A stretch of DNA of 22,307 nucleotides from Planctomycetales bacterium (GTDB lineage: Bacteria; Planctomycetota; Phycisphaerae; SM23-33), in assembly GCA_030612725.1 (NCBI GenBank), contig JAUWNJ010000037.1, forward strand, positions 1 through 22,307. Reading direction: 5' to 3'. Position 1 is the first letter of the stretch, and each line of letters begins with the position of its first letter. Shown one piece after another: positions 129 to 20,879 of the stretch. Below the pieces are notes generated by a model. That model was not told the DNA's origin and did not search any database. It saw only the letters and a program-made list of their open reading frames with translations. A program made the position numbers and the translations under genes.

Positions 129-3104
129 ATGAACGAAAAAAAGAAAAACTACAAAGACACGTTGAATCTTCCGAATACCGACTTCGATATGCGCGCCGGG
201 CTGCTCAAGAAAGAACCGGCTATGCAGGCACGCTGGTCCGAGCAGAATCTTTACGGGCAAATACGCGACGCCCGCGCCGGAAGCCCGCGATTCATTCTCC
301 ACGACGGCCCGCCATACGCCAACGGTAATATCCACATGGGCACCGCGCTGAACAAAATCCTCAAGGACATCGTCGTCCGGTGCAAGAACATGACCGGCTT
401 CGACGCGCCCTATGTCCCCGGCTGGGACTGCCACGGCCTGCCCATCGAATACCGCGTCCAGAGCGAACTCGGCGACAAACTGGTAAAAATGTCGCACATA
501 GACGTCCGCCGCCTGTGCGCCGAATACGCCGATAAGTACGTCAAAATCCAGTCCGAGCAGTTTCAGCGACTCGGCGTTCTCGGCGAATTCGACGCCCCTT
601 ACATCACAATGACGCCCCGGTACGAATCGGCAGTGCTGGAAGTCTTCGCACGCATGGTCGAGCAGGGACTGGTGTTCAGGCAACTCAAACCCGTTCACTG
701 GTCCATCGAGAACCGAACCGCACTGGCTGAAGCCGAGCTGGAATACCACGACCGCGAAGACGACAGCATCTACGTCCTGCTGGCTGGGGCCGATTCATCA
801 GCCCTGAAAAATCTGTTCGGCCTCAACGACGATACGCCGACCTATCTGATGATCTGGACGACCACACCGTGGACGCTACCGGCCAACCTGGCAGTGGCTG
901 TGCACCCGGATTTTGAATACTCTGCCGTCAAGTTCACCCACGCCGGCAAGGAAGTTATCGCCGTTATCGCCTCCGACCTTGTTGAAAAGGTCTGCGGTGT
1001 CGGCGGCGTTGAAAAATTCGAGGTTCTGGCGACCGCACGCGGAGCCGCTCTGGTCGATGCCGGAATCACCTACCTGCATCCGCTGATTGGCGAGAAGGTC
1101 TGTCCGGTCGTTCCCGCCAATTACGTTACGCTCGAAGACGGCACCGGCTTGGTTCACACGGCTCCGGGTCATGGAATGGAAGACTACGGTACGGGTTTGA
1201 AGTTCGACCTGGGGGTTTATTGCCCTGTCCGCGAAGACGGCACGTTCGACGAGACTGCTCCCGATTGGCTCATCGGCAAGAGCGTATGGGAGGCGAATCC
1301 GCTGGTTGTGGATTTTCTCTCAACGGCTGGCACGCTGTTTCATAAACAGGTCATAACGCACTCTTACCCGCACGACTGGCGGAGTAAGACGCCGACGATC
1401 TTCCGCGCGACCAAGCAGTGGTTCGTAGCCGTCGATGGTGATATGAAGCGCGGTACGACGCTGCGTGAGATGGCCATGGACGCCTGCCGAAAGAGCGCCG
1501 ACGACAATGGGATGGATTTCATCCCGGACTGGGGCAGAAACCGCCTGGCTGGAATGCTCGAAAGCAGACCCGACTGGTGCATCTCGCGCCAGCGGAGTTG
1601 GGGGCTTCCGATACCGGCATTCTACAACGAGGCCGGAGAAGTCCTGCTGACACCCGCGTCCGTCCGGGCAGTGGCCAAAAGTTTCGCCGAGCGAGGCTCG
1701 GATTGCTGGTTCACCGATTCGCCGACGGAACTACTGGGCGATTACGACCCTGTCTTCGATACGGATCTGGCCGAACCGAAAAACTTTGATGCGAGTGAAC
1801 TCCACACAGGCCATGACATTTTCGACGTATGGTTCGAGTCCGGTTCGAGTTGGTTCGCGGTGGCTGTCCGGCGAGAACTGGTCGATGAAATCCCGGTGGA
1901 CCTGTACCTCGAAGGTTCCGACCAGCATCGAGGGTGGTTCCAGTTATCGCTTCTGCCTGCGCTTGGAGCGGCTGGGCTACCGCCGTTCAGGACCGTCCTG
2001 ACACACGGATTCGTCGTTACCGAGGACGGGCACAAAATGTCCAAGTCGCTCGGAAACACCATCGACGTAATCGACCAACTCTCCAAGCGTGGAGCCGACA
2101 TTATCCGCCTGTGGGTAGCATCGCAGAACTACCAGGACGACGTCCGCTGCAGCGAAAATCTCATCGCCCAAAGCGAAGACGCCTACCGGAAGATTCGCAA
2201 TACGCTTCGGTTCTGCATGGGTTCGTGCAGCAATTTCGACCCTGCCCGACACACCGCCGAATCGTCCGAGCATTCGCTCGACCGATGGATGAGGCTGGAA
2301 CTGCACCAACTCATCCGCGATGTCCGCATCGCCTATGACAAATACGAATTTCACCGCGCGACACGGCTGATGTACGAGTTCTGCACCGTTCAGGCGTCCA
2401 GCGTCTATATGGCTGCGGTGAAAGACCGCCTGTACTGCGAATTACCCGATTCGCCGCGACGACGGGCGACCCAGGCGGTACTGCACGAGATGCTTTCTGT
2501 GCTGGTGAAACTCCTCGCTCCAATCCTGCCGCACACCGCCGAGGAAGCATGGGAGCACATCCCAGCCCGCGACCCAAACGAACCGGAAAACGTCCATCTG
2601 GCAATGATGCCGGAATATGACGAAGAAATGCTGGAAATGGCTGAAGACCTCAGGCCGGTCAACCCAGACCTCGCCCAGTTTTCCTCCGACGAAATCCAAG
2701 TGGGACCAAGCTGGATTTGGGACCGCCTGCTGGACCTGCGGGCAGACGGACTGGTCAAACTCGAAGCACTACGGAACGCCGGCGTCAAGAATCCGCTCGA
2801 CGCCGAAGCCGTCTTTACCATCGCCGACGACAACCAAGCAGCCGAAACATTCCTGGAAACCTATCTGGGCGAACTGGAAGACCTCCTCGGCGTCGGATAC
2901 GCGCGAATCGAGAAAGCGAGTAGCACAGGCATTAGTCCCGTGTCCGAAACTCTGCCTGTCGGCGTTCGCGTCGAGGACACGCGCGAAAAATACAGCCGAT
3001 GCGCCCGCTCATGGAAGCGCCGCCCGGACGTCGGTTCCGACGCGGAATACCCAGACCTCTCCGCCCGCGACGCCGAAGTGATGAAGGTGTTGGCGAAGAA
3101 ATAA
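129..3104 (+). CDS. ileS: Isoleucine--tRNA ligase (class I aaRS), 991 aa
   Basis: HIGH-type motif PYANGNIHMGTA near the N-terminus, KMSKS motif (HKMSKSLGN), and the typical IleRS N-terminal KDTLNLPNTDFDMRAG. Full-length uninterrupted ORF ending in TAA. Confidence 0.95.
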   Translation: MNEKKKNYKDTLNLPNTDFDMRAGLLKKEPAMQARWSEQNLYGQIRDARAGSPRFILHDGPPYANGNIHMGTALNKILKDIVVRCKNMTGFDAPYVPGWDCHGLPIEYRVQSELGDKLVKMSHIDVRRLCAEYADKYVKIQSEQFQRLGVLGEFDAPYITMTPRYESAVLEVFARMVEQGLVFRQLKPVHWSIENRTALAEAELEYHDREDDSIYVLLAGADSSALKNLFGLNDDTPTYLMIWTTTPWTLPANLAVAVHPDFEYSAVKFTHAGKEVIAVIASDLVEKVCGVGGVEKFEVLATARGAALVDAGITYLHPLIGEKVCPVVPANYVTLEDGTGLVHTAPGHGMEDYGTGLKFDLGVYCPVREDGTFDETAPDWLIGKSVWEANPLVVDFLSTAGTLFHKQVITHSYPHDWRSKTPTIFRATKQWFVAVDGDMKRGTTLREMAMDACRKSADDNGMDFIPDWGRNRLAGMLESRPDWCISRQRSWGLPIPAFYNEAGEVLLTPASVRAVAKSFAERGSDCWFTDSPTELLGDYDPVFDTDLAEPKNFDASELHTGHDIFDVWFESGSSWFAVAVRRELVDEIPVDLYLEGSDQHRGWFQLSLLPALGAAGLPPFRTVLTHGFVVTEDGHKMSKSLGNTIDVIDQLSKRGADIIRLWVASQNYQDDVRCSENLIAQSEDAYRKIRNTLRFCMGSCSNFDPARHTAESSEHSLDRWMRLELHQLIRDVRIAYDKYEFHRATRLMYEFCTVQASSVYMAAVKDRLYCELPDSPRRRATQAVLHEMLSVLVKLLAPILPHTAEEAWEHIPARDPNEPENVHLAMMPEYDEEMLEMAEDLRPVNPDLAQFSSDEIQVGPSWIWDRLLDLRADGLVKLEALRNAGVKNPLDAEAVFTIADDNQAAETFLETYLGELEDLLGVGYARIEKASSTGISPVSETLPVGVRVEDTREKYSRCARSWKRRPDVGSDAEYPDLSARDAEVMKVLAKK

Positions 3105-3203
3105 AGCGTGGTCACAGGACCGGAGCGGCAATTGCGTCTCGCCGATCAACATATTAGAATCCCACGAGATAATTCACGATCATCGCGGACTTGATGAGGC
3201 CCT

Positions 3204-3938
3204 ATGGAAACGAGCGGCGCTATGTCCTTACCTCAAATAGACATATGGTACGGCAGTAAGTAAACTTTTGGTCGATTCGGCAACCCGCAACGGTGGGTCA
3301 ACCTGCCTGGACGAGCCAGCAGCCCCAACGGTATAGATTCGGTGCGCTGGATGCTCAACAACGACGAAGAAATCGATCGTCCCCTGCCGCTGGGTCCAAC
3401 GGCATTTCGCTTGATTGGCGAGGGCGATTTTAACATCGAACTGGACCGGGAAGCCCTGATCCAGGGCGACAACACCGTGGAAATCATCGCAACTGATCGG
3501 AACGGCAATGAGGCCGGACAGACCGTCACCGTCCGATACGCACCGGCTTCGTCCTGCCCCCTGCCGCACAGTGTCAACTGGGACCAGACTAAAGAAATCA
3601 ATGACGTGGCGCAAGTTGTTGACGGACTGTGGCGTCTGACCGATGACGGGGTGCGAACGGTTGAAATCGGCTATGACCGCATCATTGCGATCGGGGACGG
3701 CGACACGCAGGACCTGATTGCATGCGGCGTCGCCTACCGCCTCAAGGCGCGCGCGGAATCACGCCCCGACACACCCAGCCTCTACCGGATGAAAGTCTGG
3801 CCCGCCGACCAAGGCGAACCGGACGGTTGGCAACTGGAAGGACTTGGCGGTCAGGGCGAACTTGATCGCGGATCACTGCTTCTCGTCGCCCATAACGCAG
3901 ACGTTACATTTGGTGATGTTACGGTTACGGCCGTCTAA
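3204..3938 (+). pseudogene. Hypothetical protein gene with an in-frame TAA at 3261-3263. SD (GAGG) + ATG at 3204; the intact distal ORF is reported from GTG 3342, which has no SD.
   Basis: Translation in one frame: METSGAMSLPQIDIWYGSK*TFGRFGNPQRWVNLPGRASSPNGIDSVRWMLNNDEE... The region between the stop and GTG 3342 reads as protein-like with no other stops. Function unknown. Confidence 0.4.
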
Positions 3939-3939
3939 T

Positions 3940-3994
3940 ACCAATACGTCCTGTCGGCCCGGGCATTTCCCACGGCCTTGGTGAACCATTCCGG
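3940..3994 (-). pseudogene. Remnant of a hotdog-thioesterase 3' end (…TPEWFTKAVGNARADRTYWY*) immediately downstream of the DppA-like gene
   Basis: 3966-3994 matches 4866-4894 (the C-terminal coding region of the thioesterase at 4844-5263) at 26 of 29 positions, with 19 bp identical (ccttggtgaaccattccgg). The spacing is exactly 900 bp. The reverse-strand translation gives PEWFTK, as in the real C-terminus APEWFTKVMEN. Confidence 0.5.
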
Positions 3995-4006
3995 TGTCCC
4001 TGTTGG

Positions 4007-5378: not shown

Positions 5379-5849
5379 ATGGATTCGCATCAGGTACTAC
5401 AAAAAGCGATCGAAAAGGTCGGCGCAAAGAAGGTGGCTGGGGATATGCGAGTGTCTTCGTCGCTGGTGTATAAATGGTGCCAACCCTCCGACGACAACAC
5501 AACGATTGAGCCGAGCGGTACGCGCAATCCGCTTGACCGCGTTGCAGCCTTGCTGGAAAGCACGAATGACGCGAACGTAGTACAATGGCTTTGCGAACGG
5601 GCGGGCGGATTTTTCGTTCACGATCCCGAGGTCAGCGACCGCCGCATCGATGCCGAATATATCGCCAACACGCAGCGGATAATTGAGGATTTTTCCCGGC
5701 TGCTTCGCGCTCTATCAGGCGCTATCGCCGACGACGGGAAAGTGGACGAAGACGAAGCGCGGAACATCCGAACGCAATGGCAAAGACTTAAACGATACGG
5801 CGAAGCCTTCGTCATCGCATGCGAACGAGGAATGTTCGCAGAAACCTGA
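5379..5849 (+). CDS. HTH DNA-binding protein resembling phage CII (186 CII/CP76-type) regulators
   Basis: N-terminal segment VGAKKVAGDMRVSSSLVYKWCQPSDDNT has the helix-turn-helix then W-x-x-P layout of CII-type regulators. 156 aa. AGGA 10 nt upstream of the ATG. The family assignment is from memory of the family, not a search. Confidence 0.5.
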   Translation: MDSHQVLQKAIEKVGAKKVAGDMRVSSSLVYKWCQPSDDNTTIEPSGTRNPLDRVAALLESTNDANVVQWLCERAGGFFVHDPEVSDRRIDAEYIANTQRIIEDFSRLLRALSGAIADDGKVDEDEARNIRTQWQRLKRYGEAFVIACERGMFAET

Positions 5850-5857
5850 TAGCAGCG

Positions 5858-6093
5858 GTAGGCTGGGCCGGAGCGAAGCGGAGTCCCACCTTGTCCAGAT
5901 AAAGAAAATATTGAATAATGAATAAAGAATTTTGAATGACGAAGTAAAAAAACATCCCTCAAAGGTAGATAAGTTTCTTTTACTTCAAAATTCGACATTC
6001 CTCGTTCCACGTAGTGGTACGTAGTATCGCTACGCGGTGCTACGCACAATATTCATTATTCAAAAAAAGGTGGGGCTAGGCAGCCCAGCCTGC
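5858..6093. repeat. Composite inverted-repeat element. GC-rich REP-like arms at 5858-5892 and 6068-6093 (inverted), inner AT-rich inverted 14-mers TTGAATAATGAATA at 5914-5927 and 6050-6063, enclosing an ~180-bp AT-rich core.
   Basis: gtaggctgggccggagcgaagcggagtcccacctt on one side versus the reverse complement aggctgggctgcctagccccacct on the other. The AT-rich core contrasts sharply with the ~60% GC of the flanks. It sits between the HTH gene stop (5849) and the NfeD-like gene start (6116). Confidence 0.55.
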
Positions 6094-6115
6094 AAGTAAG
6101 GCAAGGAGCACGATT

Positions 6116-6739
6116 ATGATGGAATGGTGGCAAAATCTTGAACCCGTAACACAGTGGTTCTACGGGGCTGCTGCATTCTTCAGTGCTATCTTCCTCTGGC
6201 AGTTCATAATGTCGATGATAGGGCTGAGCGGCGCTGAAGATGTTGATATGGACCTGGACGCCGGCGACATCGAGGCCGCTTCTGCCGGCGATGCCGCCGA
6301 CAGCGTAGCGTCGTTCAGACTGCTGTCTATACGAGCGATTCTGGCATTCCTTACACTGTTCTTCTGGGCGGCGGCTATGCACCACGCCGCCGATGGTAAC
6401 CTGACCCGTGCGATTACCTACGGGACACTCTGGGGCCTGGGCGCTTTCGCGGTCGTGGCGCTGGCGTTGCACCTGATGCGAAAACTGGCGGAGACCGGCA
6501 ACCCGCGACTGCACACCTGCGTCGGAACGCGCGGGACGGTCTATCTGGACATACCCGCCGACGGAGCAGGCGAAGCCAGAGTTACCGTCAGCGGCGTCGT
6601 CTCGCACGTCAAGGCGCGATCGGCCGACGAGCAGGAAATCAAAGCCGGAACGCCGATAAACGTCATGCGAACACTCGGACCAACCACTATCGAAGTTAAA
6701 CCTGTCGAAGAAACCGAAAAAGAAAGAGGTGAAAAATGA
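6116..6739 (+). CDS. NfeD/YqiJ-family inner-membrane protein (OB-fold C-terminal domain), partner of flotillin
   Basis: Hydrophobic N-terminal half with several predicted TM segments (FYGAAAFFSAIFLWQFIM..., ILAFLTLFFWAAAM..., LWGLGAFAVVALALHL). C-terminal soluble domain. 4-bp ATGA overlap with the downstream flotillin gene. AAGGAG SD. Confidence 0.7.
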   Translation: MMEWWQNLEPVTQWFYGAAAFFSAIFLWQFIMSMIGLSGAEDVDMDLDAGDIEAASAGDAADSVASFRLLSIRAILAFLTLFFWAAAMHHAADGNLTRAITYGTLWGLGAFAVVALALHLMRKLAETGNPRLHTCVGTRGTVYLDIPADGAGEARVTVSGVVSHVKARSADEQEIKAGTPINVMRTLGPTTIEVKPVEETEKERGEK

Positions 6740-8253
6740 TGAACCTGACAACACTGGCAATGAATCTGCTGGCGCAATTGCCCGCCAAAGGCGCCAAGGA
6801 TGATGGGAGCATAACTCTTATCCTGATCCTCATCATCCTGGGCATACTTATCGCGACGGTCTTTATCCTCGCCAGCCGGTACAAGCGATGCCCGTCGAAC
6901 AAGGTCCTCGTAATCTACGGTAAGACCGGAAGCGGAGCCGCCAAGTGCGTCCACGGCGGGGCTGCGTTCGTCTGGCCACTGGTTCAGGCGTACGACTTCC
7001 TCAGTCTCGAGCCGTTCGTCGTGCCCATCGACCTGACAAACGCGCTGTCCCGCGAGAATATCCGCGTAGCCGTACCGACAACGGTAACGGCCGCTATCTC
7101 CAACCAGCCGGGGATTATGCAAAACGCCGCCATACGCCTGCTGGGACTGAACGATAGTGAAATCCAGAACCAGGCACAGGACATCATCCTCGGACAGATG
7201 CGTGCCGTCATCGCGACGATGGAAATCGAAGCAATCAACCGCGACCGACAATCGTTCATGGCCAAGGTCAACGAAGCCGTCTCGATGGAACTGGAGAAGA
7301 TCGGTCTGGGCGTTATCAACGTCAATATCCGCGACATCGAGGACGAGTCGGGATACATCAAGGCCCTTGGTCGAAAAGCAGCCGCCGAGGCGATTAACCA
7401 GGCAAACGTTGACGTAGCCGAGCAGGAGCGAACCGGTGAGACGGGTGTGGCTGAACGCAAGCGCGACCAGCGAGTCGCCGTCGCCGCCGCCAACGCCACC
7501 GCCGAGATGGGCGAAGCGACCGCCGACCGCGACAAACGTCAGAAAGTCGCCGGCCTGGAGGCAGAAGCCGTCAGTTCCGAGACCGTCGCCGACTCCGATA
7601 AGGCCGGTTATCGCGCCAATCAGAAAGTGGCTGAGGAAGAGGCGAGAAACCGAAGCGAATCGGCATCGCGTGAAGCCGACGGCGCTATCCGCGTCGCGCA
7701 GGAAATCGCGCAGAAAAAGGCGGAAGACGCTCGCGCAATCCGTGAGGAGTCGCGCCTCAAGGCCGAGATAGTCGTCCCTGCCAACGCCGACCGCGAGAGG
7801 GTCGTCATCGCCGCCGACGCGAAGAAGCAGGAAGCCATCCGCATCGCCGAGGGCGACGCCCAAGCCACAATCGCCCGCATGACCGCACAGGGCAAGGGTG
7901 TCCAGGCGATACTGGACGGCAAGGCTGAAGGCTATCAGCGACTGGTCGAAGCCTGCGGCGGGGACGCCGGAGCAGCCGCTTTGCTGATAATCGAGAAATT
8001 CGCCGAAATCGCCAACATTCAGGCCAAGGCCATTCAGGACCTGCCGATCGAAAAGGTCATCGTATGGGACGGCGGCGGCGAAAGCGGCGGACTGAAGGGT
8101 CTGGGCGGACGACTGCTCGGCGCTTTGCCGCCGATGCACGACCTTGCCAAACAGGTCGGACTCGACCTGCCCGAATTCCTCGGCAAAATCGCAAAAGAAG
8201 CGGCGAAAACACAGGAAACTCCGCAACCACCTGCAGAAGGAAAAGATGAATAA
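6736..8253 (+). CDS. Flotillin / SPFH (band-7) family protein, YqiK-like
   Basis: N-terminal TM segment (ITLILILIILGILIATVFILA), SPFH core (RCPSNKVLVIYGK...VPIDL...), long Ala/Glu-rich coiled-coil centre and flotillin C-terminal region. 505 aa. Confidence 0.9.
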   Translation: MMNLTTLAMNLLAQLPAKGAKDDGSITLILILIILGILIATVFILASRYKRCPSNKVLVIYGKTGSGAAKCVHGGAAFVWPLVQAYDFLSLEPFVVPIDLTNALSRENIRVAVPTTVTAAISNQPGIMQNAAIRLLGLNDSEIQNQAQDIILGQMRAVIATMEIEAINRDRQSFMAKVNEAVSMELEKIGLGVINVNIRDIEDESGYIKALGRKAAAEAINQANVDVAEQERTGETGVAERKRDQRVAVAAANATAEMGEATADRDKRQKVAGLEAEAVSSETVADSDKAGYRANQKVAEEEARNRSESASREADGAIRVAQEIAQKKAEDARAIREESRLKAEIVVPANADRERVVIAADAKKQEAIRIAEGDAQATIARMTAQGKGVQAILDGKAEGYQRLVEACGGDAGAAALLIIEKFAEIANIQAKAIQDLPIEKVIVWDGGGESGGLKGLGGRLLGALPPMHDLAKQVGLDLPEFLGKIAKEAAKTQETPQPPAEGKDE

Positions 8254-8368
8254 GAAAAGATTAACCGTGGGTGCCATGCCTTCACGCGCAGCGCAGCGGA
8301 GAGTGTAGGCATATTCACGCCCTTCACTTCGTTACGGACGAGAACATGGCACCCATCTGCATATTGAT

Positions 8369-8965
8369 ATGAGCGATAAGGAAACCAAAAAACTTCGTCT
8401 GGGTGTTCTGCTTTCCGGCGGGGGGCGGACGCTGATGAACATCCTGGAGTATATCCAGGCCGGGAAGTTATCGGCCGAGGTGGTCGTTGTTATCGCCAGC
8501 CGGGATTGCAAAGGCGTCGAACGCTCGCGGAACGCAGGGCTTGGTGTGCATATCGTTCCGTATAAGGAAATGCCGGATACGGAGACGTACTCGGCGGCGA
8601 TTGTCGAGCGACTCGACGCCGCCGAGGTGGACCTGGTCGTCCAGGCGGGGTTCCTCTCGTTCTGGAAAATCCCCCCGAAATACGAAGGGCGTGTATTGAA
8701 CATTCACCCCGCCCTGCTTCCGAGTTTCGGCGGGAACGGAATGTATGGCCGGCACGTTCACGAAGCCGTGCTGGCGGCCGGGTGCAAGGTCTCCGGATGT
8801 ACGGTTCATCTCGTGGATAACGAATACGACCATGGCCTGATAATTGTCCAGAAATGCGTTCCGGTCCGCGACGACGACACGCCCGACACACTGGCAGCCC
8901 GCGTCTTCGAACAGGAGTGCATCGCATACCCCGAAGCAATCGGATTGGTAGCCAGTAGTCAGTAG
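8369..8965 (+). CDS. purN: Phosphoribosylglycinamide formyltransferase
   Basis: LRLGVLLSGGGRTL, NIHPALLPSFGG and HLVDNEYDHGLII (the catalytic His/Asp region) are typical of PurN. 198 aa. Confidence 0.9.
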   Translation: MSDKETKKLRLGVLLSGGGRTLMNILEYIQAGKLSAEVVVVIASRDCKGVERSRNAGLGVHIVPYKEMPDTETYSAAIVERLDAAEVDLVVQAGFLSFWKIPPKYEGRVLNIHPALLPSFGGNGMYGRHVHEAVLAAGCKVSGCTVHLVDNEYDHGLIIVQKCVPVRDDDTPDTLAARVFEQECIAYPEAIGLVASSQ

Positions 8966-8980
8966 CCGGTAGTCGGTTGT

Positions 8981-9364
8981 TCAGTAAATTTGACTCTCAA
9001 CCCATTCTCGCGTACGTCGCACCATCTCCAAGGCCTCACGGCGATCCAAAGATGCTTCATGTGGCATTGTCTCGTAGCGAAAAAGCGATGCGTAGGGATT
9101 GAGAATATCAATGTCCTGCAGATCGTTCGGGACAGGGTGTCCTTCATCGGCCAAAAGGTCTATAAGTTCACGCAGATCATGTGTCTTGCGAAATCTGATT
9201 CCATGCAAGGATAATAACGCTTTGAGAATTTTTTCGAGAGCCTGTTGGCAGTGGAAGCCAATCGTATCATCGGAGACTCGTTCAGAATTGAGGACCTCAT
9301 CGACCAGCACTTCATCGTGCCGTGCCTTTTCCAGCAGAATAAGAGCCTGTTCACGCTGCTTCAT
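8981..9364 (-). CDS. HEPN-domain toxin (HepT-like) of a HEPN/MNT pair
   Basis: R-x4-H HEPN motif (RFRKTH) and an all-helical sequence. The start at internal ATG 9364 (MKQREQ...) overlaps the upstream MNT gene stop by 14 bp. The longer ORF to 9451 is probably not used. Confidence 0.75.
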   Translation of the reverse strand: MKQREQALILLEKARHDEVLVDEVLNSERVSDDTIGFHCQQALEKILKALLSLHGIRFRKTHDLRELIDLLADEGHPVPNDLQDIDILNPYASLFRYETMPHEASLDRREALEMVRRTREWVESQIY

Positions 9365-9668
9365 ATAGGACTTCTCCTTCCAGCGCGACCTCGAACATGA
9401 GGTTTCCCGGCGTATCCGACCAATAGTTATAGTACGCTTCATTGACCACAACTACATCCGCCGGAATTCGTAATGGGCTGACTACCCGTCGCAGGCGGAC
9501 CATCTCGGCCATGACGTCGGCGACCTGATCTTCCACTACAAGCAGGTCCACGTCGCTACCTTCGTCGGCGTTACCTGTCGCGTACGAACCGAATAAAATA
9601 ATTTTTTTCGGATGCGCCGCGTCGCGTAACAACTCAACCGCTTTTGAAATGCTTTCAGAGTCTATCAT
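9351..9668 (-). CDS. Minimal nucleotidyltransferase (MntA-like antitoxin) of a HEPN/MNT pair
   Basis: GSYATGNADEGSDVDLLVV is the hG[GS]x9-13Dh[DE]h nucleotidyltransferase signature. 105 aa. Confidence 0.8.
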   Translation of the reverse strand: MIDSESISKAVELLRDAAHPKKIILFGSYATGNADEGSDVDLLVVEDQVADVMAEMVRLRRVVSPLRIPADVVVVNEAYYNYWSDTPGNLMFEVALEGEVLYEAA

Positions 9669-11284: not shown

Positions 11285-11467
11285 ATGTCGAAAGAGTTTA
11301 ATCCCGAAGCCGACGTCAAGGGACAAATAGAGAAACTGATGCTGGAAATCAAGGAACTGACCCAACGGCGCGAGGAGTCAGCCGATCCCCAGGCCGACAG
11401 TATCCTGGCGGATCAGATAAAAGACCTCGAAGACCAGGCAGCATTCCTGAAACGCCAATTGCCTTAA
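11285..11467 (+). CDS. Small (60 aa) charged, predicted coiled-coil protein, convergent with glnA and divergent from the NtrC-like gene
   Basis: GGAG SD 8 nt upstream of the ATG. The heptad-like sequence IEKLMLEIKELTQRREE...IKDLEDQAAFLKRQL is reminiscent of DUF465/YdcH-type small proteins. It is followed by a strong compound hairpin. Confidence 0.4.
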   Translation: MSKEFNPEADVKGQIEKLMLEIKELTQRREESADPQADSILADQIKDLEDQAAFLKRQLP

Positions 11468-11470
11468 AAG

Positions 11471-11600
11471 CAGTCAGCGGTCAGCTATCAGCAGTCAGCA
11501 AAAACAGATAACAGCAAACAACAAACAACGAACGAGCTGACCGCTGATCGCTCTTTGCTTTTTGCTTTTTGCTGATCGCTGAATGCTGACCGCTGATCGC
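11471..11600. terminator. Compound inverted/direct repeat, probably a bidirectional terminator, between convergent genes
   Basis: tcagcggtcagctatcagcagtcagcaaaaa (11474-11505) is the near reverse complement of ttttgctgatcgctgaatgctgaccgctga (~11566-11597). gctgaccgctgatcgc occurs as an exact 16-bp direct repeat at 11535-11550 and 11585-11600. The T/A-rich tracts gcaaaaacag and ctttttgctttttgc flank the centre. Confidence 0.5.
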
Positions 11601-13051
11601 TATAGATCAAAATACATACAGAATTCGAACGGGTGAGGCCTTTGGCGCAGCGCGTCCACCTCGTTCTCGCGTTTGTACTTCATCCAATAATAAATCACGT
11701 CGTCGGTAAAGACGCCGCCTTCCAGCAGGTATTTATGGTCTGCTTCCAGGGCGTTCAGGGCTGCATCCAGATCGACCGGGGCTGAGGCGATTTTGGCGTA
11801 CTCTTCGGCGCTGAGGTGGTAAATGTCCTTGTCGATGGGGTCGCCGGGGTCGATCTCATTTTTAATCCCGTCGAGGGCGGCCATCGTTATGGCTGAAAAC
11901 GCCAGGTACGGATTGCAACTGCTGTCCGGGCAGCGGAACTCCAGACGTTTGGTCCTTGGATTTTCGCTGTAAGTCGGTATGCGTATGGCGGCGGAGCGGT
12001 TCCGACTGGAATAGACCATGTTCACCGGCGCTTCGTATCCCGGAACGAGGCGCTTGTAACTGTTGGTCGTCGGGTTGGTGAAGGCCAACAGCGATGAGGC
12101 GTGTTTGAGGATTCCGCCGATGGCGTGCAGACCCATTTTCGAGAACCCGGCGTATTCGCCTCCGGCAAAGAGCGGTGTGTCGCCCTTCCACAAAGAGAAG
12201 TGTACGTGCATACCCGATCCGTTGTCCTGAAAGAGCGGCTTGGGCATGAAGGTAACGGTTTTACCGAACCATGCAGCCACGTTCTTGGTGATGTACTTAT
12301 ACAGCATCACCTTGTCGGACATGTTCACAAGCGTATCGAAGAGCATGTCGATCTCGGCCTGCCCGCCGGTGGCGACCTCGTGGTGATGCGCTTCGACGGC
12401 GATTCCGCACTGTTGGAGAACGGCCATCATTTCCGAGCGGATGTCCTGACCCCGATCGGTCGGCGGAAGCGGGAAGTATCCTTCCTTGAGGCGAACCTTA
12501 TGGCCGAGGTTGTCGGGGTTGTCGCTTCCTCGGTTCCAGATACCCTCTTCGCTGTCCACGTAGTAATGCGCGCCGTTGACGGTCTGGTCGTATCGGGCGT
12601 GGTCGAAGATGAAGAACTCCGGCTCGGGGCCGAAGCAGGCTGTGTCGGCGATTCCGCTTTGGGCCAGGTACGCCTCACACTTCCGCCCGATGGACCTGGG
12701 GTCCCGGCTGTATTCCTCGAAGTCGATGGGACTTTTGACATTGCAGATTAACATCAGTGTCGGGCGAGCCATGAACGGATCGACCACAGCCGTATCGGCT
12801 ACGGGCACGATGAGCATGTCGGACTCGTTAATCGCCTGCCATCCACGGAGGCTCGAACCGTCGAAACCAAAACCGGCAGTGAAACTCTCTTCAGTCAGTT
12901 CACTCGCCGGAACCGTCAAGTGTTGCCACAGACCCGGAAAGTCCAGAAACCGCAGGTCCACAAATTCGATCTTTCCGGTCTGATTGGTCTTGGGTATTGA
13001 AACTTCCTTATTGCGAATAAAATCAACCACTTCGGCAGGCGTCTTAAACAT
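11600..13051 (-). CDS. glnA: Glutamine synthetase type I
   Basis: MFKTPAEVVDFIRNKEV N-terminus; GS beta-grasp and catalytic regions (DGSS, GPEPEFF, NGSGMHVHFSLW, YKRLVPGYEAPV, RIPTYSENPRTKRLEFRCPD). AAGGA SD 8 nt upstream of ATG 13051. The ORF tool over-extends it to 13144. Confidence 0.9.
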   Translation of the reverse strand: MFKTPAEVVDFIRNKEVSIPKTNQTGKIEFVDLRFLDFPGLWQHLTVPASELTEESFTAGFGFDGSSLRGWQAINESDMLIVPVADTAVVDPFMARPTLMLICNVKSPIDFEEYSRDPRSIGRKCEAYLAQSGIADTACFGPEPEFFIFDHARYDQTVNGAHYYVDSEEGIWNRGSDNPDNLGHKVRLKEGYFPLPPTDRGQDIRSEMMAVLQQCGIAVEAHHHEVATGGQAEIDMLFDTLVNMSDKVMLYKYITKNVAAWFGKTVTFMPKPLFQDNGSGMHVHFSLWKGDTPLFAGGEYAGFSKMGLHAIGGILKHASSLLAFTNPTTNSYKRLVPGYEAPVNMVYSSRNRSAAIRIPTYSENPRTKRLEFRCPDSSCNPYLAFSAITMAALDGIKNEIDPGDPIDKDIYHLSAEEYAKIASAPVDLDAALNALEADHKYLLEGGVFTDDVIYYWMKYKRENEVDALRQRPHPFEFCMYFDL

Positions 13052-13158
13052 TTTTGCATCCTTCCAGTCAAAAGGCGGAATCTCAACTCTGGTATAAAAC
13101 CCACGACGGGGCAGGAGTTTAACACCCGCAGGCGGGACGGTCAAGAGGAATACAAAAT

Positions 13159-13316
13159 GGCATCAGGCATTGGGCATTTGGCATTGGTGGCACGGGGTTT
13201 ATGAAGGTTGTTCCTGTTTAATTCGCCGATTCGGCAAAACCGCCGGACATAATGACCGAACGTGCAATTACCAACAACCACCAATGCCCAGTACCGAATG
13301 CCGAATGCCCAATTCC
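13159..13316. promoter_or_regulatory. Inverted arrays of GGCATTN heptamers in the glnA / M42-peptidase divergent intergenic region, candidate regulator binding sites
   Basis: ggcatca ggcattg ggcattt ggcattg gtgg at 13159-13190, and the reverse-complement array caatgcc cagtacc gaatgcc gaatgcc caattcc at 13279-13316. ggcattggtgg and ccaccaatgcc are perfect 11-bp reverse complements ~88 bp apart. The palindrome gccgattcggc lies between them at 13224-13234. Confidence 0.4.
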
Positions 13317-17550: not shown

Positions 17551-17584
17551 GTAGGCTGGGGCGAAGCGGAGCGAGGCCCACCTT
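17551..17584 (+). repeat. REP-like GC-rich hairpin repeat, copy 3: gtaggctggggcgaagcggagcgaggcccacctt
   Basis: It shares the GTAGGCTGGG…(cGAAg)…CCCACCTT architecture with 5858-5892, 18724-18748 and the inverted copy at 6068-6093. It lies 22 bp upstream of the URO-D-like gene ATG. Confidence 0.6.
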
Positions 17585-17605
17585 CTCACCCAAACAGGAG
17601 AAAAA

Positions 17606-18727
17606 ATGTCAATCACTCCATGCCGCTCAAAATGGAAAGGTACAATGACCGACCGAGAGCGGTTCAATAACCAAATGCACTACAGGCCCATCGACCGATG
17701 CTTCAACATGGAATTCGGATACTGGAACGAGAATTTTATCCAGTGGCCCCTCTTCGTCGAAAACGGCGTCACCAATAACGCCGAGGCCGACGTCTTCTTC
17801 AACTTCGACAGGATCAGCGGCGTCAGCGGATGTGTCTGGCTCAACCCGCCATTCGCCGAAAAGGTCATCGAGGAGACCACCACCAGCCGGATCATTATGA
17901 ACCCCGACGGCCTGTTGGCCGAGGTGCCCAAAGACGCACACGACACGATCCCACACTATATCAAGTCATCCATCGTAACGCCGGACGACTGGAAGCGCGT
18001 CAAGGACGAACGACTCGACCCAGACGACCCTGCCCGCAATATAGACATCGAAGCCATTAAAAAGACCCACCCGCCAGGCCGCGACTATCCGCTTGGCGTC
18101 GATTGCGCCTCGATGATCGGCAAGGTCCGCAACATGCTCACCTTCGAAGGCCTGGCCTACGCCTGCTACGACCATCCTGAAATGGTCGAGGATATGGTCG
18201 AAACCTGCTGCCTGATGGTGGAAAATTTCCTCGACCAGGTGCTGGGTAAGATCGACTTCGACTTCGCCAGCGGGTGGGAGGACATCTGCTTCAAGAACGG
18301 GCCTATCGTCTCGGTGGACTTTTTCCGGGACGTGGTTACGCCGCGATACAAGCGAATCGGGGACAAACTCCACGCCGCCGGGATCGACCTGTGGTACACC
18401 GATTGCGACGGCGACGTCCGCCCCATCCTGCCGCTGCTGATGGAGGGCGGAATCAACTGCCTGTTTCCCTACGAGGTCAACTCCTGTGCGCATCCGGGCG
18501 AATTACTGGATGAATACGGAAAAGACCTCCGCATCATGGGCGGCTTCGACAAGATGCAACTAGGCAAAGGCCCCGAAGCCATTAAAAAGTACATGGAATC
18601 GCTGGTCCCCTACGTCGAGCGCGGCGGGTACATCCCGTTCTGCGACCACCGCTGTCCGCCGAACGTCAAGCCGGAAGATTATCTCTACTACCTCGACCTC
18701 AAGGAACAGATGTTCGGGATGAAGTAG
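17606..18727 (+). CDS. Uroporphyrinogen decarboxylase (URO-D) family protein, MtaA/CmuA-type fold, function unknown
   Basis: 373-aa protein with a URO-D-like TIM-barrel. From recall, conserved blocks include FNMEFGYW, GVDCASMIG, LWYTDCDGD and NCLFPYE. AGGAG SD 7 nt upstream of the ATG. Confidence 0.7.
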   Translation: MSITPCRSKWKGTMTDRERFNNQMHYRPIDRCFNMEFGYWNENFIQWPLFVENGVTNNAEADVFFNFDRISGVSGCVWLNPPFAEKVIEETTTSRIIMNPDGLLAEVPKDAHDTIPHYIKSSIVTPDDWKRVKDERLDPDDPARNIDIEAIKKTHPPGRDYPLGVDCASMIGKVRNMLTFEGLAYACYDHPEMVEDMVETCCLMVENFLDQVLGKIDFDFASGWEDICFKNGPIVSVDFFRDVVTPRYKRIGDKLHAAGIDLWYTDCDGDVRPILPLLMEGGINCLFPYEVNSCAHPGELLDEYGKDLRIMGGFDKMQLGKGPEAIKKYMESLVPYVERGGYIPFCDHRCPPNVKPEDYLYYLDLKEQMFGMK

Positions 18728-18748
18728 GCTGGGACGAAGTCCCACCTT
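18724..18748 (+). repeat. REP-like hairpin repeat, copy 4: gtaggctgggacgaagtcccacctt, overlapping the TAG stop of the URO-D-like gene
   Basis: Near-perfect hairpin: agg(c)tgggac / gtcccacct with a GAA triloop. Confidence 0.6.
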
Positions 18749-18830
18749 TGGCCCTGATTTCAATCGGCCGGAATGGAAAAAGGTTTCGACTACGCTAAAG
18801 CTCCGCCCGGAGCCTACGCCTTGCCCCTTT

Positions 18831-18863
18831 CAATCCGCAATCCACAATCTGCAATCCGCAATC
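18831..18863. repeat. Tandem heptamer (CAATCYR) x ~4.7: caatccg caatcca caatctg caatccg caatc
   Basis: Read directly. Located in the convergent intergenic region 4 bp 3' of the beta-propeller gene stop. Preceded at 18809-18827 by an inverted partial copy of the REP-like motif (ggagcctacgccttgcccc). Confidence 0.6.
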
Positions 18864-20511: not shown

Positions 20512-20527
20512 GAACGGCTCCTTTCAA

Positions 20528-20612
20528 ATGTCAAAAATCTTACCCGGATTGAGGATATTGTTCGGGTCCCACGCCCGCTTGATGGCGCGCATCACGTCTA
20601 TCACCGGCTCGG
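20528..20612 (-). pseudogene. Relic 3' end of a GlcD-like FAD-oxidase gene (…AEPVIDVMRAIKRAWDPNNILNPGKIFDI*), a direct-repeat copy of 21404-21488
   Basis: ~85 bp, ~93% identical to the genuine 3' end of the GlcD-like CDS at 21399-. Six mismatches, all transitions. The protein sequence is conserved except the final V/I. The relic stop is followed 17 bp later by the SD+ATG of the beta-propeller gene. Confidence 0.6.
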
Positions 20613-20720
20613 CAGGTAGCGCCACCGCCAATCCAAACCCGAAACGACATGCAGAACCCACGGTGATACTCCCTTCGGAAATACGGTTTGGCATAGAATG
20701 AAACGAGGCGTAATCCCGAC

Positions 20721-20879
20721 TTACTGCTGATGGTGTTCCTTCTGGCGTTGAACAAGTTGTTCGTATTTCTTGTCCCAGTAGGCGAGCTGCTCTTCTGTGG
20801 TCATCCCACTAAGCCTTTCCTGAACCCGCTTAGCCCCCTGGCGTTTCATCTCGACACAATCAAATGTCTTCGTCTTCAT
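20721..20879 (-). CDS. Small (52 aa) ORF overlapping the 3' end of the PIN gene by 19 bp, candidate antitoxin partner in reversed gene order
   Basis: MKTKTFDCVEMKRQGAKRVQERLSGMTTEEQLAYWDKKYEQLVQRQKEHHQQ. Its ATG lies inside the PIN C-terminal codons in another frame. Below the ORF-track size cut-off. Charged, helical. Confidence 0.35.
   Translation of the reverse strand: MKTKTFDCVEMKRQGAKRVQERLSGMTTEEQLAYWDKKYEQLVQRQKEHHQQ

What the first reader, a model, noticed from the sequence alone, without database searches (positions are those of the whole stretch)
5858..6093. MITE-like composite inverted-repeat element with an AT-rich core between the CII-like regulator and the NfeD-flotillin operon
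The element has outer GC-rich inverted arms (gtaggctggg…cccacctt at 5858-5892, with its reverse complement at 6068-6093). Nested inside are inverted AT-rich 14-mers TTGAATAATGAATA (5914-5927 and 6050-6063) and a further 9-bp inverted pair gaagtaaaa/ttttacttc. These enclose ~180 bp of ~30% GC sequence in a ~60% GC genome. This is either a miniature non-autonomous mobile element built from the local REP-like repeat, or an elaborate regulatory palindrome in front of the NfeD/flotillin operon. It could possibly be controlled by the adjacent HTH protein.
Basis: seen in the sequence. Interest (0 to 1): 0.55.

Follow-up and report, generated by a model that had tools for sequence, protein, structure and literature searches.

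The report
Nested REP-doublet hairpin insertion
The 236-bp nested palindrome between two operon genes of an uncultured planctomycete is a selfish REP-doublet (REPIN-like) repeat whose loop carries an extra AT-rich insert; the same site is empty in close relatives, so it is an ordinary repeat-element insertion and not a conserved regulatory switch.

Summary
Window 5858-6093 is a nested inverted repeat, and the intercistronic RNA folds at -94 kcal/mol (z = -7.1). It is an insertion. Six relatives have the CII-like stop codon, 2-3 nt, then the nfeD ribosome-binding site. One relative (L002) has a single 32-bp REP hairpin there. Another (L323) has an 88-bp REP doublet. The window has a 236-bp doublet. 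All three filled alleles share the right junction, so there was one ancestral insertion that later diversified in place. The outer arms belong to a GTAG-tagged REP family (GTAGGCTGGG...CCCACCTT). It has four full copies plus one diverged copy in this contig and more at other sites in relatives. Other doublets of the family span 85-94 bp, so the ~145 extra AT-rich bases are a secondary addition to the doublet's loop. Its perfect 14-bp arms are two tandem TGAATAA heptamers. Inverted heptamer arrays around a core occur twice more in this contig and more than 120 times, with TGAATAA arms, in metagenomes. No target-site duplication, second copy of the core, Rfam match or sense-strand terminator was found. 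Best reading: a REPIN-like element with an enlarged loop, tolerated in the operon transcript. RAYT-type mobilisation is inferred, not shown. The regulatory-palindrome reading is not supported. This is a new member of a known kind and of low-to-moderate interest.

The parts
5850..5857 (+). Left junction linker TAGCAGCG, directly after the CII-like stop codon TGA (5847-5849)
   Evidence: The empty alleles read TGA + AT/AG + CAAGGAGCAC. 'TGATAG' is shared with L002.
5858..5892 (+). Left GTAG-tagged REP unit, long-loop variant: GTAGGCTGGGCCGGAGCGAAGCGGAGTCCCACCTT
   Evidence: It aligns with 8 other copies from the window, L002, L323 and L004 (alignment A1). The family was found by motif scans. L004 5515-5544 is 93% identical at a non-orthologous site.
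5893..5910 (+). AT-rich linker GTCCAGATAAAGAAAATA between the REP body and the heptamer arm
   Evidence: It is unpaired in the minimum-free-energy fold.
5911..5925 (+). Left inner arm. It is a perfect 14-mer made of two tandem TGAATAA heptamers. Degenerate in-phase units (AGAATTT, TGAATGA) continue to about 5939.
   Evidence: I3 and D1, spacing 21 = 3 x 7. TRF reports a period-7 array at 5907-5930, 3.4 copies, 88% matches. The period-7 self-match is shown.
5926..6004 (+). AT-rich hairpin A (29% GC), containing GAAGTAAAA/TTTTACTTC and the 33-nt imperfect inverted repeat
   Evidence: (I1, I2) and the folds. 5995-6007 is a perfect 13-nt complement of 5823-5835 in the CII-like ORF.
6005..6047 (+). 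Hairpin B (56% GC). Its arms are about 10-bp-period direct repeats: CGTAGTG/CGTAGTA on the left and GCTACGC/GCTACGC on the right.
   Evidence: Sequence. It forms in the + strand fold, where it needs G-U pairs. GC.
6049..6063 (-). Right inner arm, (TTATTCA)2, the perfect complement of 5911-5924. It abuts the A-run of the right REP.
   Evidence: It is present at the start of the independent Logan contig L082.
6063..6093 (-). Right REP unit, short-loop variant. It reads GCAGGCTGGGCTGCCTAGCCCCACCTTTTTTT on the - strand, so the GTAG tag has mutated to GCAG. It is the ortholog of the single REP in L002 and of the right REP in L323.
   Evidence: On the - strand it looks like an intrinsic terminator.
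6094..6101 (+). Right junction linker AAGTAAGG. The counterparts are GGGCAAAG in L002 and GGGTAAAG in L323. It is absent from the empty alleles and from the other REP copies.
   Evidence: The shared linker argues for a single ancestral insertion.
6102..6118 (+). Retained nfeD ribosome-binding site (CAAGGAGCAC) and start codon ATG at 6116
   Evidence: This stretch is conserved in all alleles. The ribosome-binding site itself is unpaired in the predicted folds. In the longer fold, the start-codon region pairs with 5808-5817 upstream of the element.

Best explanation
The element is a REPIN-like doublet: two inverted GTAG-tagged REP units with the GTAG ends outward (a 'head-head' dimer). It was inserted once, in an ancestor of the window genome, L002 and L323. 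The insertion site was the roughly 15-nt spacer between the stop codon of the CII-like gene and the ribosome-binding site of nfeD.

Doublets of this family normally span 85-94 bp. In the window lineage the loop later gained about 145 bp of mostly AT-rich sequence. That addition is itself a hairpin whose arms are two tandem TGAATAA heptamers. It is therefore a small example of the 'inverted heptamer arrays around a core' architecture that recurs in this contig and in many other bacteria.

Inferred steps:
- REP doublets of this type are thought to be mobilised in trans, as single-stranded DNA hairpins, by a REP-associated tyrosine transposase (RAYT). That route leaves no target duplication.
- The element is co-transcribed with the operon and folds into one long imperfect RNA hairpin that leaves the nfeD ribosome-binding site free.
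- At most it uncouples the two cistrons, by RNase III-type processing or by 3'-end protection of the upstream mRNA. It is tolerated rather than required.

Shown: the insertion polymorphism, REP family membership, the outlier size, the heptamer arms and the fold.

Not shown: the RAYT, transcription, any processing, and whether the extra loop DNA arrived by insertion or grew in place.
For: **Allelic series at one site**
- Empty: L003, L004 (= L326), L325, L005, L006, L324. L327 also lacks any REP element, but its linker is about 12 nt longer.
- REP singlet: L002.
- 88-bp doublet: L323.
- 236-bp doublet: the window.
- The three filled alleles share the right REP orientation and an 8-nt right linker that other REP copies lack.

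**REP family**
- The consensus is GTAGGCTGGGACG..AGTCCCnCC, from 9 aligned copies in 4 genomes.
- Four full copies and one diverged copy lie in this 22-kb contig.
- Copies in relatives sit at non-orthologous sites.

**Size**
- The other head-head doublets span 94, 88 and 85 bp. The 85-bp one is a single locus, seen in both L004 and L325.
- They fold as clean hairpins, z = -5.3 and -14.4.

**Heptamer nature of the inner arms**.

**The same architecture elsewhere**
- Window 11469-11601 and 13159-13309.
- L003, downstream of purN.
- More than 120 metagenome loci with TGAATAA arms.

**Fold and orientation**
- z = -7.1, with the nfeD ribosome-binding site left unpaired.
- There is no sense-strand terminator-like site. 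The only terminator-like hairpin faces the other way.

**Literature**
- GTAG REPs occur in Planctomycetes and Verrucomicrobia. They are mostly head-head dimers with 20-100 bp spacers that may have complementary ends. They sit downstream of genes and are linked to RAYTs (PMC3733652).
- REPINs are proposed as the replicative unit (PMC3116915).
Against: - No RAYT gene lies in the 22-kb contig, and I could not search the rest of the genome.
- No second copy of the complete 236-bp unit or of its core was found: not in 0.66 Mb of flotillin-gene loci fetched from related and more distant genomes, not in 1.8 Mb of other fetched loci, and not in plasmid or phage collections. Mobility of the whole composite is therefore unproven.
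- The right arm's tag is GCAG, not GTAG, so the present copy may be immobile.
- Only two perfect heptamer units occur per arm, against a typical 4-5 in the metagenome examples. Membership of the heptamer-armed class is therefore borderline.
- Only 7% of those examples are nested in a larger palindrome.
- The inner 164 nt rests on a single assembly path.
Confidence: 0.75

Rival explanations
1. In-place growth. The extra 145 bp was never a separate element. The loop of an ordinary REP doublet grew step by step through slipped-strand duplication of short units (heptamers, decamers). Template switching across the hairpin then copied each change to the opposite arm.
For: - Every layer of the core has arms made of short tandem repeats: heptamers at 5911-5939 / 6049-6063 and roughly 10-bp repeats in hairpin B.
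- There is no target duplication and no homologous core anywhere I searched.
- Relatives carry different repeat-armed hairpins at the same orthologous sites.
- A 13-nt perfect inverted copy of nearby coding sequence lies inside the core, p about 0.003 within 1.5 kb. That is the kind of trace template switching leaves.
- Array copy numbers differ between the two arms in most metagenome examples.
Against: - The added DNA is 29% GC in a 56% GC genome, which is odd for sequence templated locally.
- Heptamer-armed elements with conserved cores and different flanks do exist as multi-copy families in cyanobacterial and other contigs, so true mobility occurs in this class.
- The 13-nt match is a post hoc observation.
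Confidence: 0.25
2. A classical MITE. This would be a deletion derivative of a DDE-transposase insertion sequence, defined by its 14-bp terminal inverted repeats, that happened to land next to or inside REP sequences.
For: - It has perfect 14-bp terminal inverted repeats, is about 150 bp long, is AT-rich and is non-coding.
- The site shows presence/absence polymorphism.
- REPs are known targets of some insertion sequences (reference list of PMC3116915).
Against: - No target-site duplication occurs at either the inner or the outer boundary.
- No other copy and no related insertion-sequence end was found.
- The terminal repeats are simply two units of a common tandem heptamer. In more than 120 other loci that heptamer flanks unrelated cores.
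Confidence: 0.1
3. A regulatory palindrome. The element would be an operator, promoter or attenuator for nfeD-flotillin, possibly bound by the adjacent CII-like HTH protein.
For: - It sits directly upstream of nfeD.
- It contains iteron-like GCTACGC repeats at 10-bp spacing.
- There is one weak sigma-70-like match at 5891-5919.
- The + (sense) strand folds 9.5 kcal/mol better than the - strand.
Against: - It is absent from relatives that keep the same three-gene operon with genes about 15 nt apart.
- A doublet is present in L323, where the CII-like gene carries a premature stop. The CII-like gene is also internally deleted in L004 and L325.
- The promoter-like count equals the shuffle expectation, and there is no sense-strand terminator.
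- There is no Rfam match.
- The Pfam CII match of the neighbouring protein is just below the gathering score, 25.8 against 26 bits.
Confidence: 0.07
4. An invertible promoter switch ('inverton'). The AT-rich core would flip between the inverted repeats, giving phase-variable expression of nfeD-flotillin.
For: - Inverted repeats flank an AT-rich segment upstream of an operon.
- An independent assembly of the same run breaks on both sides of the core, at 5883 and 6048. Mixed orientations could cause that.
Against: - No recombinase gene lies in the contig.
- The assembly break points do not coincide with the ends of the perfect repeat. An inversion at the 14-mer predicts breaks at about 5924 and 6050.
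- Breaks of this kind are equally expected from dispersed REP copies or low coverage.
- Relatives lack the element.
Confidence: 0.04
5. An assembly artefact. The core would have been joined to this locus by a wrong path through repeated REP arms.
For: The Logan assembly does not bridge 5884-6047, and the arms are multi-copy repeats.
Against: - The Logan contig L082 starts with 16 nt of the AT-rich heptamer arm joined to the right REP and nfeD.
- L001 carries the left REP joined to the CII-like gene.
- Both ends of the composite are therefore at this locus. Only the middle is unverified.
Confidence: 0.04

Closest known systems
REPINs / head-head dimers of GTAG-tagged REPs (Bertels & Rainey 2011, PMC3116915; Di Nocera et al. 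2013, PMC3733652)
   Same: - Two inverted REP units with GTAG ends outward that together form one long hairpin.
- A dispersed family, with four full copies and one diverged copy in 22 kb.
- A location just downstream of a stop codon between co-directional genes.
- Singlets that look like remnants of doublets (L002).
- A spacer with complementary ends.
- Prior reports of such repeats in Planctomycetes and Verrucomicrobia.
   Different: - The spacer is 174 nt, against 20-100 nt reported and 18-40 nt in the other doublets of this family seen here.
- The spacer is AT-rich and itself a nested, repeat-armed hairpin.
- One GTAG tag has decayed to GCAG.
- No cognate RAYT has been seen.
E. coli BIMEs, including the IHF-binding RIP/RIB type (from my own knowledge, not checked here)
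   Same: A mosaic of inverted REPs separated by a distinct internal motif. They sit inside operons, where they act as mRNA stabilisers or attenuators.
   Different: The internal motifs of BIMEs are short, conserved and shared among many copies. Here the internal module is long and, as far as I could search, unique. I saw no IHF-like consensus on inspecting the sequence.
Tandem heptanucleotide repeats of bacteria: cyanobacterial STRR (my own knowledge), TAACTGA repeats (PMC4679880) and Xanthomonas GGGAATC arrays, which often occur as convergent pairs (PMC4692102)
   Same: Period-7 arrays in intergenic DNA. They are frequently present as two arrays of opposite orientation close together: 70-75 such pairs per Xanthomonas genome. 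Their length varies between relatives, and their function is unknown.
   Different: - The window's arms have only two perfect units.
- The heptamer is TGAATAA.
- The arrays enclose a 125-nt core and lie inside a REP doublet.
Bacterial MITEs (for example Correia elements; review PMC10969869 was listed but not read)
   Same: Small, non-coding, with terminal inverted repeats, intergenic, polymorphic between strains and able to fold as an RNA hairpin.
   Different: No target-site duplication, no other copies found, and no parent insertion sequence.
Intervening sequences (IVS) of 23S rRNA (my own knowledge for the concept)
   Same: A (TGAATAA)n-armed element of the same architecture sits at the tip of a 23S rRNA helix in metagenome locus L205. 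Such elements can therefore be carried inside transcripts as extended hairpins.
   Different: The window element lies in an mRNA spacer, not in rRNA. Processing has not been shown for either.

Membership tests
GTAG-tagged REP family | A terminal GTAG (or degenerate GYAG/GTRG) tetranucleotide at one end of the unit | tested here: met
   The left arm starts with GTAG at 5858. The right arm reads GCAG on the - strand, and its orthologs in L002 and L323 read GTAG.
GTAG-tagged REP family | A short palindromic body (stem 5-13 bp, loop 2-20 nt) | tested here: met
   The stem is GGGAC/GTCCC or GGCTGGG(N)C/G(N)CCCACC with one bulged C. Loops are 3-16 nt across the 9 aligned copies.
GTAG-tagged REP family | Many dispersed copies in one genome, mostly extragenic | tested here: inconclusive
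   Four full copies and one diverged copy lie in the 22-kb contig, all intergenic. Copies occur at different sites in L004/L325, L002 and L323. The genome-wide count could not be obtained.
REPIN (REP doublet forming a hairpin) | Two REPs in inverted orientation that pair into one hairpin | tested here: met
   In the minimum-free-energy fold, 5858-5868 pairs with 6083-6093 and 5882-5892 pairs with 6067-6077. The GTAG ends face outward, which is the head-head arrangement in the nomenclature of PMC3733652.
REPIN (REP doublet forming a hairpin) | The doublet, including its spacer, is the replicated unit: several copies share the same spacer | tested here: not met
   The four distinct doublet loci seen (window 5858-6093, window 18724-18817, L323, and L004 = L325) all have different spacers. 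The sample is very small, and full genomes are needed.
REPIN (REP doublet forming a hairpin) | A cognate RAYT (Y1/HUH transposase) gene in the genome, usually flanked by the same REPs | not testable with these tools
   No such gene lies in the contig or in the gene tables of the related loci.
MITE (DDE-transposase derived) | Terminal inverted repeats | tested here: met
   A perfect 14-bp repeat at 5911-5924 / 6050-6063.
MITE (DDE-transposase derived) | A target-site duplication flanking the element | tested here: not met
   There is no direct repeat at the inner boundaries (AAATA| ... |AAAAA). There is none at the outer boundaries when compared with the empty site TGA-AT-CAAGGAG.
MITE (DDE-transposase derived) | Multiple homologous copies, and a parent insertion sequence with the same ends | tested here: not met
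   The core has no homolog among 120 metagenome loci sharing the same arms, the other fetched loci, plasmids or phages. Full metagenome alignment searches were not possible.
Inverted heptamer-array hairpins (an architecture, not a curated family) | Tandem period-7 arrays on both sides, in opposite orientation, enclosing a core | tested here: inconclusive
   Period 7 is confirmed (TRF 5907-5930, 3.4 copies). There are only 2 perfect units per arm, against a mode of 4-5 in the metagenome set. Clear examples with other heptamers exist in the same contig.
Known structured RNA families (Rfam 15) | A match to a covariance model at the gathering score | tested here: not met
   No hit in the whole window at gathering thresholds. 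Only chance-level hits (E > 2) occur in 5700-6300.

The most novel reading that the evidence does not exclude
The AT-rich module would be a small member of an undescribed, cross-phylum class of elements. The class is defined by architecture rather than sequence: two inverted arrays of a tandem heptamer enclosing a 40-140-nt core.

Members of the class settle at the tips of existing hairpins and at gene 3' ends. Examples here are the loop of a REP doublet, a 23S rRNA helix in L205, and positions right after stop codons in most of the loci whose gene context could be called.

They would spread or grow by a mechanism that leaves no target duplication and needs no element-encoded protein. The co-occurrence of GTAG-containing heptamer arrays and GTAG REPs in this contig hints at a shared enzyme, perhaps a RAYT-like single-strand nuclease.
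Probability: 0.25. Interest if true: 0.6.

Novelty: new member of a known kind. Interest (0 to 1): 0.3.

Why it matters
**For this locus.** The finding removes a tempting but wrong idea, that the nfeD-flotillin operon has an elaborate operator. It replaces that idea with a clean natural series at one site: empty, singlet, 88-bp doublet, 236-bp doublet. The series shows how REP doublets are born, decay and are enlarged inside an operon without destroying it. That makes the site a convenient test case for whether such hairpins uncouple neighbouring cistrons.

**More broadly.** The side result is that inverted heptamer arrays around a core are common across phyla and lie mostly at gene 3' ends. 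One sits inside a 23S rRNA gene. This points to a repeat architecture that the literature has noted only piecemeal and never explained.

Tried and rejected
- **Rfam.** I scanned the whole window at gathering thresholds and the region at E <= 10. Nothing meaningful turned up.
- **Promoter and terminator scans.** There was one weak promoter-like site, equal to the shuffle expectation. The terminator-like hairpins lie only on the antisense strand.
- **14-mer alone against viral contigs.** It gave 120 single chance hits and was uninformative.
- **Two-arm pattern against metagenome contigs.** I hoped for other copies of the element. The source contig itself was not among the rows returned.
- **blastn of the whole element against plasmids and phages.** No match.
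- **Is nesting inside an outer GC-rich inverted repeat a rule for TGAATAA-armed elements?** It is not. Only 8 of 109 show it, although that exceeds the 0.5% seen in shuffles.
- **13-nt perfect complementarity between the core and the CII-like ORF.** It is nominally unlikely (p about 0.003 locally, 0.05 contig-wide). It is not used in the predicted fold and is not collinear with a simple inverted duplication, so I left it unexplained.
- **Sigma-54 and IHF-like consensus matches in the core.** I looked by eye, found none convincing, and did not pursue it.
- **Elhai et al. 2008.** The paper on small dispersed repeats in Nostoc could not be read because it is not held. What I say about STRR therefore rests on my own knowledge and on PMC4679880 and PMC4692102.

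Full report
**1. What is in the sequence**

Window 5850-6115 is the spacer between a 156-aa ORF (5379-5849) and a 207-aa NfeD-like membrane protein (6116-6739). The ORF has a weak Phage_CP76/CII match, 25.8 bits against a cut-off of 26. The NfeD-like gene overlaps a flotillin/Band_7 gene at 6736-8253.

One coordinate needs correcting: the left 14-mer is at 5911-5924.

The core (5893-6062) is 170 nt and 34% GC, in a contig of 56% GC. It is not uniform. 5893-6004 is 29% GC, and 6005-6047 is 56% GC.

The spacer folds into one nested structure of -94.0 kcal/mol. Shuffles give -60.6 +/- 4.7, so z = -7.1. The antisense strand folds 9.5 kcal/mol less well. Folding with more flanking sequence keeps the same structure and leaves the nfeD ribosome-binding site unpaired.

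Rfam has nothing for it. Promoter-like matches equal the shuffle expectation. The only terminator-like hairpins are the right arm read on the antisense strand.

**2. It is an insertion, and the site shows an allelic series**

A scan of species-representative genomes with the flotillin protein returned planctomycete MAGs at 89-95% protein identity. Further loci were fetched through NfeD homologs. The window turned out to be a complete 22,307-bp NCBI contig.

At the junction:
- **Empty:** L003, L004 (= L326), L325, L005, L006 and L324 read TGA, 2-3 nt, CAAGGAGCAC, 4 nt, ATG. This is a tight operon with no element. L327 also lacks any REP element but has a linker about 12 nt longer.
- **Singlet:** L002 has a single 32-bp hairpin, GTAAAAAAGGTGGGCCTATCGGCCCAGCCTAC.
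- **Short doublet:** L323 (NfeD 88% identical) has an 88-bp palindrome. It consists of GTAGGCTGGGACGAAGCGAAGCGTAGTCCCGGC, a 32-nt spacer, and GCCGGGACTCCGTCTCGGCCTAC.
- **Long doublet:** the window has 236 bp.

The three filled alleles have the right-hand unit in the same orientation. Each is followed by a similar 8-nt linker (GGGCAAAG, GGGTAAAG, AAGTAAGG). That linker is absent from the empty alleles and from every other copy of the repeat. One ancestral insertion followed by local change is the simplest account.

L002 keeps 'ATAGG' where L323 has 'GTAGG'. This suggests its singlet is a deletion remnant of a doublet, as the literature describes for other REP families.

**3. The outer arms are GTAG-tagged REPs**

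Motif scans found further copies in the window: 17551 (+), 18724 (+) and a diverged one at 18817 (-). Copies also occur at non-orthologous places in relatives. One is a perfect 33-nt-arm doublet downstream of purN, seen in both L004 and L325.

Nine copies align to GTAGGCTGGGACG(+/- AGCGNAGCG)AGTCCCnCC. This fits the published definition of GTAG REPs. By that nomenclature a pair with GTAG ends outward is a 'head-head' dimer, the commonest type. Such dimers are usually 20-100 bp apart, sometimes with spacers that have complementary ends. They lie mostly downstream of genes and are associated with RAYT transposases. They have been reported from Planctomycetes and Verrucomicrobia (PMC3733652). Bertels and Rainey call such doublets REPINs and argue that they are the replicating unit (PMC3116915).

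The other doublets of this family span 94, 88 and 85 bp, the last being one locus seen in L004 and L325. They fold as simple hairpins. The doublet under study, at 236 bp, is the outlier.

**4. The extra 145 bp**

The perfect 14-bp inner arms are two tandem TGAATAA units. Degenerate in-phase units continue on the left. TRF reports a period-7 array at 5907-5930.

Ten of the 21 TRF rows in this contig have period 7 or 14. Two other intergenic hairpins have arms built from inverted heptamer arrays:
- 11469-11601, with CAGCGGT-type units, z about -7 on both strands.
- 13159-13309, with GGCATTG units.

L003 has a third kind, (AGTCAGT)3, downstream of purN. At that same site L004 has a REP doublet and L006 an unrelated palindrome. 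The window has half an array plus an inserted HEPN/nucleotidyltransferase cassette.

I searched metagenome contigs for the two arms at the observed spacing. Inspection showed (TGAATAA)n on the left and (TTATTCA)n on the right, usually 4-5 units and often unequal in number, around unrelated cores.
- Some cores form multi-copy families with different flanks. One is a cyanobacterial family of at least seven copies. Another is a three-copy family in GC-rich contigs.
- None is homologous to the window's core.
- Where flanking ORFs could be called, 43 elements lie between co-directional genes, 23 between convergent genes and 5 between divergent genes. They typically begin within about 10 nt of a stop codon.
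- One lies at the tip of a 23S rRNA helix, as an intervening sequence would.
- Only 8 of 109 are nested in a larger outer inverted repeat, against 0.5% in shuffles.

Paired convergent heptamer arrays have been reported before, in Xanthomonas, without an explanation (PMC4692102). TAACTGA arrays have been described in Beggiatoaceae, cyanobacteria and Bacteroidetes (PMC4679880).

The module in the window therefore has a recognisable architecture. With only two perfect units per arm, it is a marginal example.

**5. How it most likely works**

*Shown.* A REP doublet entered the 15-nt spacer without damaging the stop codon or the ribosome-binding site. Its terminator-like unit faces away from the direction of operon transcription. 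Its loop later gained an AT-rich, repeat-armed hairpin.

*Inferred, from what is established for GTAG REPs.* Mobilisation occurs in trans by a RAYT acting on single-stranded hairpin DNA, which explains the lack of a target duplication. The element is co-transcribed with the operon. The long imperfect RNA stem is a plausible RNase III substrate or 3'-end protector, and could uncouple the two cistrons.

*Not established.* Nothing indicates that the cell needs the element. I cannot tell whether the extra loop DNA arrived as a separate element (my preference, about 0.55 conditional on the main model) or grew in place by slippage and template switching. The second option is favoured by the repeat-built arms at every level and by a 13-nt perfect inverted copy of the nearby coding sequence inside the core. 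The low GC content argues against it.

**6. Rivals**

- *Strict MITE.* It fails on target duplication and copy number.
- *Regulatory palindrome.* It fails on conservation. Relatives with the intact operon lack the element. The neighbouring CII-like gene is itself decaying in L323 (nonsense codon) and in L004/L325 (292-nt internal deletion).
- *Invertible switch.* The only hint is that the Logan assembly breaks at 5883 and 6048. Those positions do not match the repeat ends, and no recombinase gene is nearby.
- *Mis-assembly.* This remains possible only for the unbridged middle 164 nt, because both ends of the composite are joined to the correct genes in the independent contigs.

**7. Verdict**

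The better name is a REP doublet / REPIN with an enlarged loop, not a MITE. The regulatory reading is not supported. This is a new member of a known kind, with an unusual spacer. The more interesting lead is the widespread, unexplained architecture of inverted heptamer arrays, which this contig illustrates three times.

Noticed in passing
window 11466-11601: A 135-nt hairpin built almost entirely of heptamer units: (AGCAGTC/CAGCGGT)n, then (AAACAGC/AACAACA)n, then (GCTTTTT)n and (GCTGATC)n. It lies just past the stop codon of glnA (11600-13144, - strand). RNA fold z = -6.9 on the + strand and -7.6 on the - strand.
   Followed up: partly
window 13159-13309: Inverted heptamer arrays, (GGCATTG)n and (CCAATGC/CGAATGC)n, lie 87 nt apart in the divergent region between glnA and an M42 peptidase gene. 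The fold is only weakly better than shuffles (z = -1.8).
   Followed up: partly
window 8948-8986; compare L003 6090-6165, L004 5460-5544, L006 5945-6040: A (GTAGYCR)n period-7 array overlaps the purN stop codon. At the same site each relative carries a different hairpin: L003 has inverted (AGTCAGT)3 arrays, L004 has a perfect REP doublet with 33-nt arms, and L006 has an unrelated palindrome with 26-nt arms.
   Followed up: partly
window 8981-9668: A HEPN plus nucleotidyltransferase (toxin-antitoxin-like) gene pair is present here. It is absent from L003, L004 and L006, where purN is followed directly by the ntrC-like gene region.
   Followed up: partly
window 17551-17585 and 18724-18817; 18831-18863: More copies of the same GTAG REP family. 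A singlet lies upstream of a URO-D-like gene (17606-18727). A 94-bp head-head doublet lies at the gene's 3' end. It is immediately followed by a lone (CAATCCG)4.7 heptamer array.
   Followed up: partly
window 8254-8368: About 115 nt of extra sequence lies between flotillin and purN, with an inverted repeat GGGTGCCATG / CATGGCACCC. In L002, L003 and L006 the flotillin stop and the purN start overlap. L004 has a different hairpin here. The Logan contig L082 ends inside this insert, at 8343.
   Followed up: partly
window 20527-20616 and 21402-21491; cassette 20721-21336: The last 29 codons of a GlcD-like FAD-linked oxidase gene (...KRAWDPNNILNPGKIFD) are duplicated at 93% nucleotide identity, on either side of a PIN-domain gene plus a small upstream ORF. 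This looks like a toxin-antitoxin cassette inserted with duplication of the gene's 3' end.
   Followed up: partly
L323 2421-2894; L004 2471-2644 (= L325 9808-9981): The CII-like gene upstream of nfeD is decaying in relatives. L323 has a GAA-to-TAA nonsense change that splits it into 59-aa and 78-aa ORFs. L004 and L325 have a 292-nt internal deletion that leaves 57 aa.
   Followed up: partly
window 5823-5835 vs 5995-6007: A perfect 13-nt inverted match (GAACGAGGAATGT / ACATTCCTCGTTC) joins the 3' end of the CII-like ORF and the AT-rich core. Shuffles of the core give p about 0.003 within 1.5 kb and about 0.05 across the contig. The predicted fold does not use it.
   Followed up: partly
L205 162-304 (termite-gut metagenome contig Ga0209755_10002327): A (TGAATAA)n-armed element is a roughly 175-nt insertion at the tip of a 23S rRNA helix (Rfam LSU model position 1218/1219). 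The arrangement is that of an rRNA intervening sequence.
   Followed up: yes
L207, L256/L275, L267, L278, L284, L306, L314, L319: A multi-copy family in cyanobacterial-looking contigs. Its conserved ~95-nt core (…GACAAGGGGCTTAAGCCCCTTG…) is flanked by variable numbers of TGAATAA/TTATTCA units, with different genomic flanks at each copy.
   Followed up: partly
L003 7800-7925, L004 7060-7170 (= L325 14400-14510), L006 7540-7590: Long arrays of a 10-bp unit, (GAWWCGGAAC)n or its complement, lie upstream of the ntrC-like sigma-54 activator gene in relatives. In L004 and L006 further heptamer arrays follow. The window has different sequence there, including a 60-aa ORF.
   Followed up: no
window 3098-4005: A roughly 900-bp segment holding ORF 3342-3938 (198 aa, no Pfam match) is absent from L003. 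In L003 the tRNA-synthetase gene is followed within 20 nt by the M55 peptidase gene. L006 has unrelated sequence at this position.
   Followed up: no
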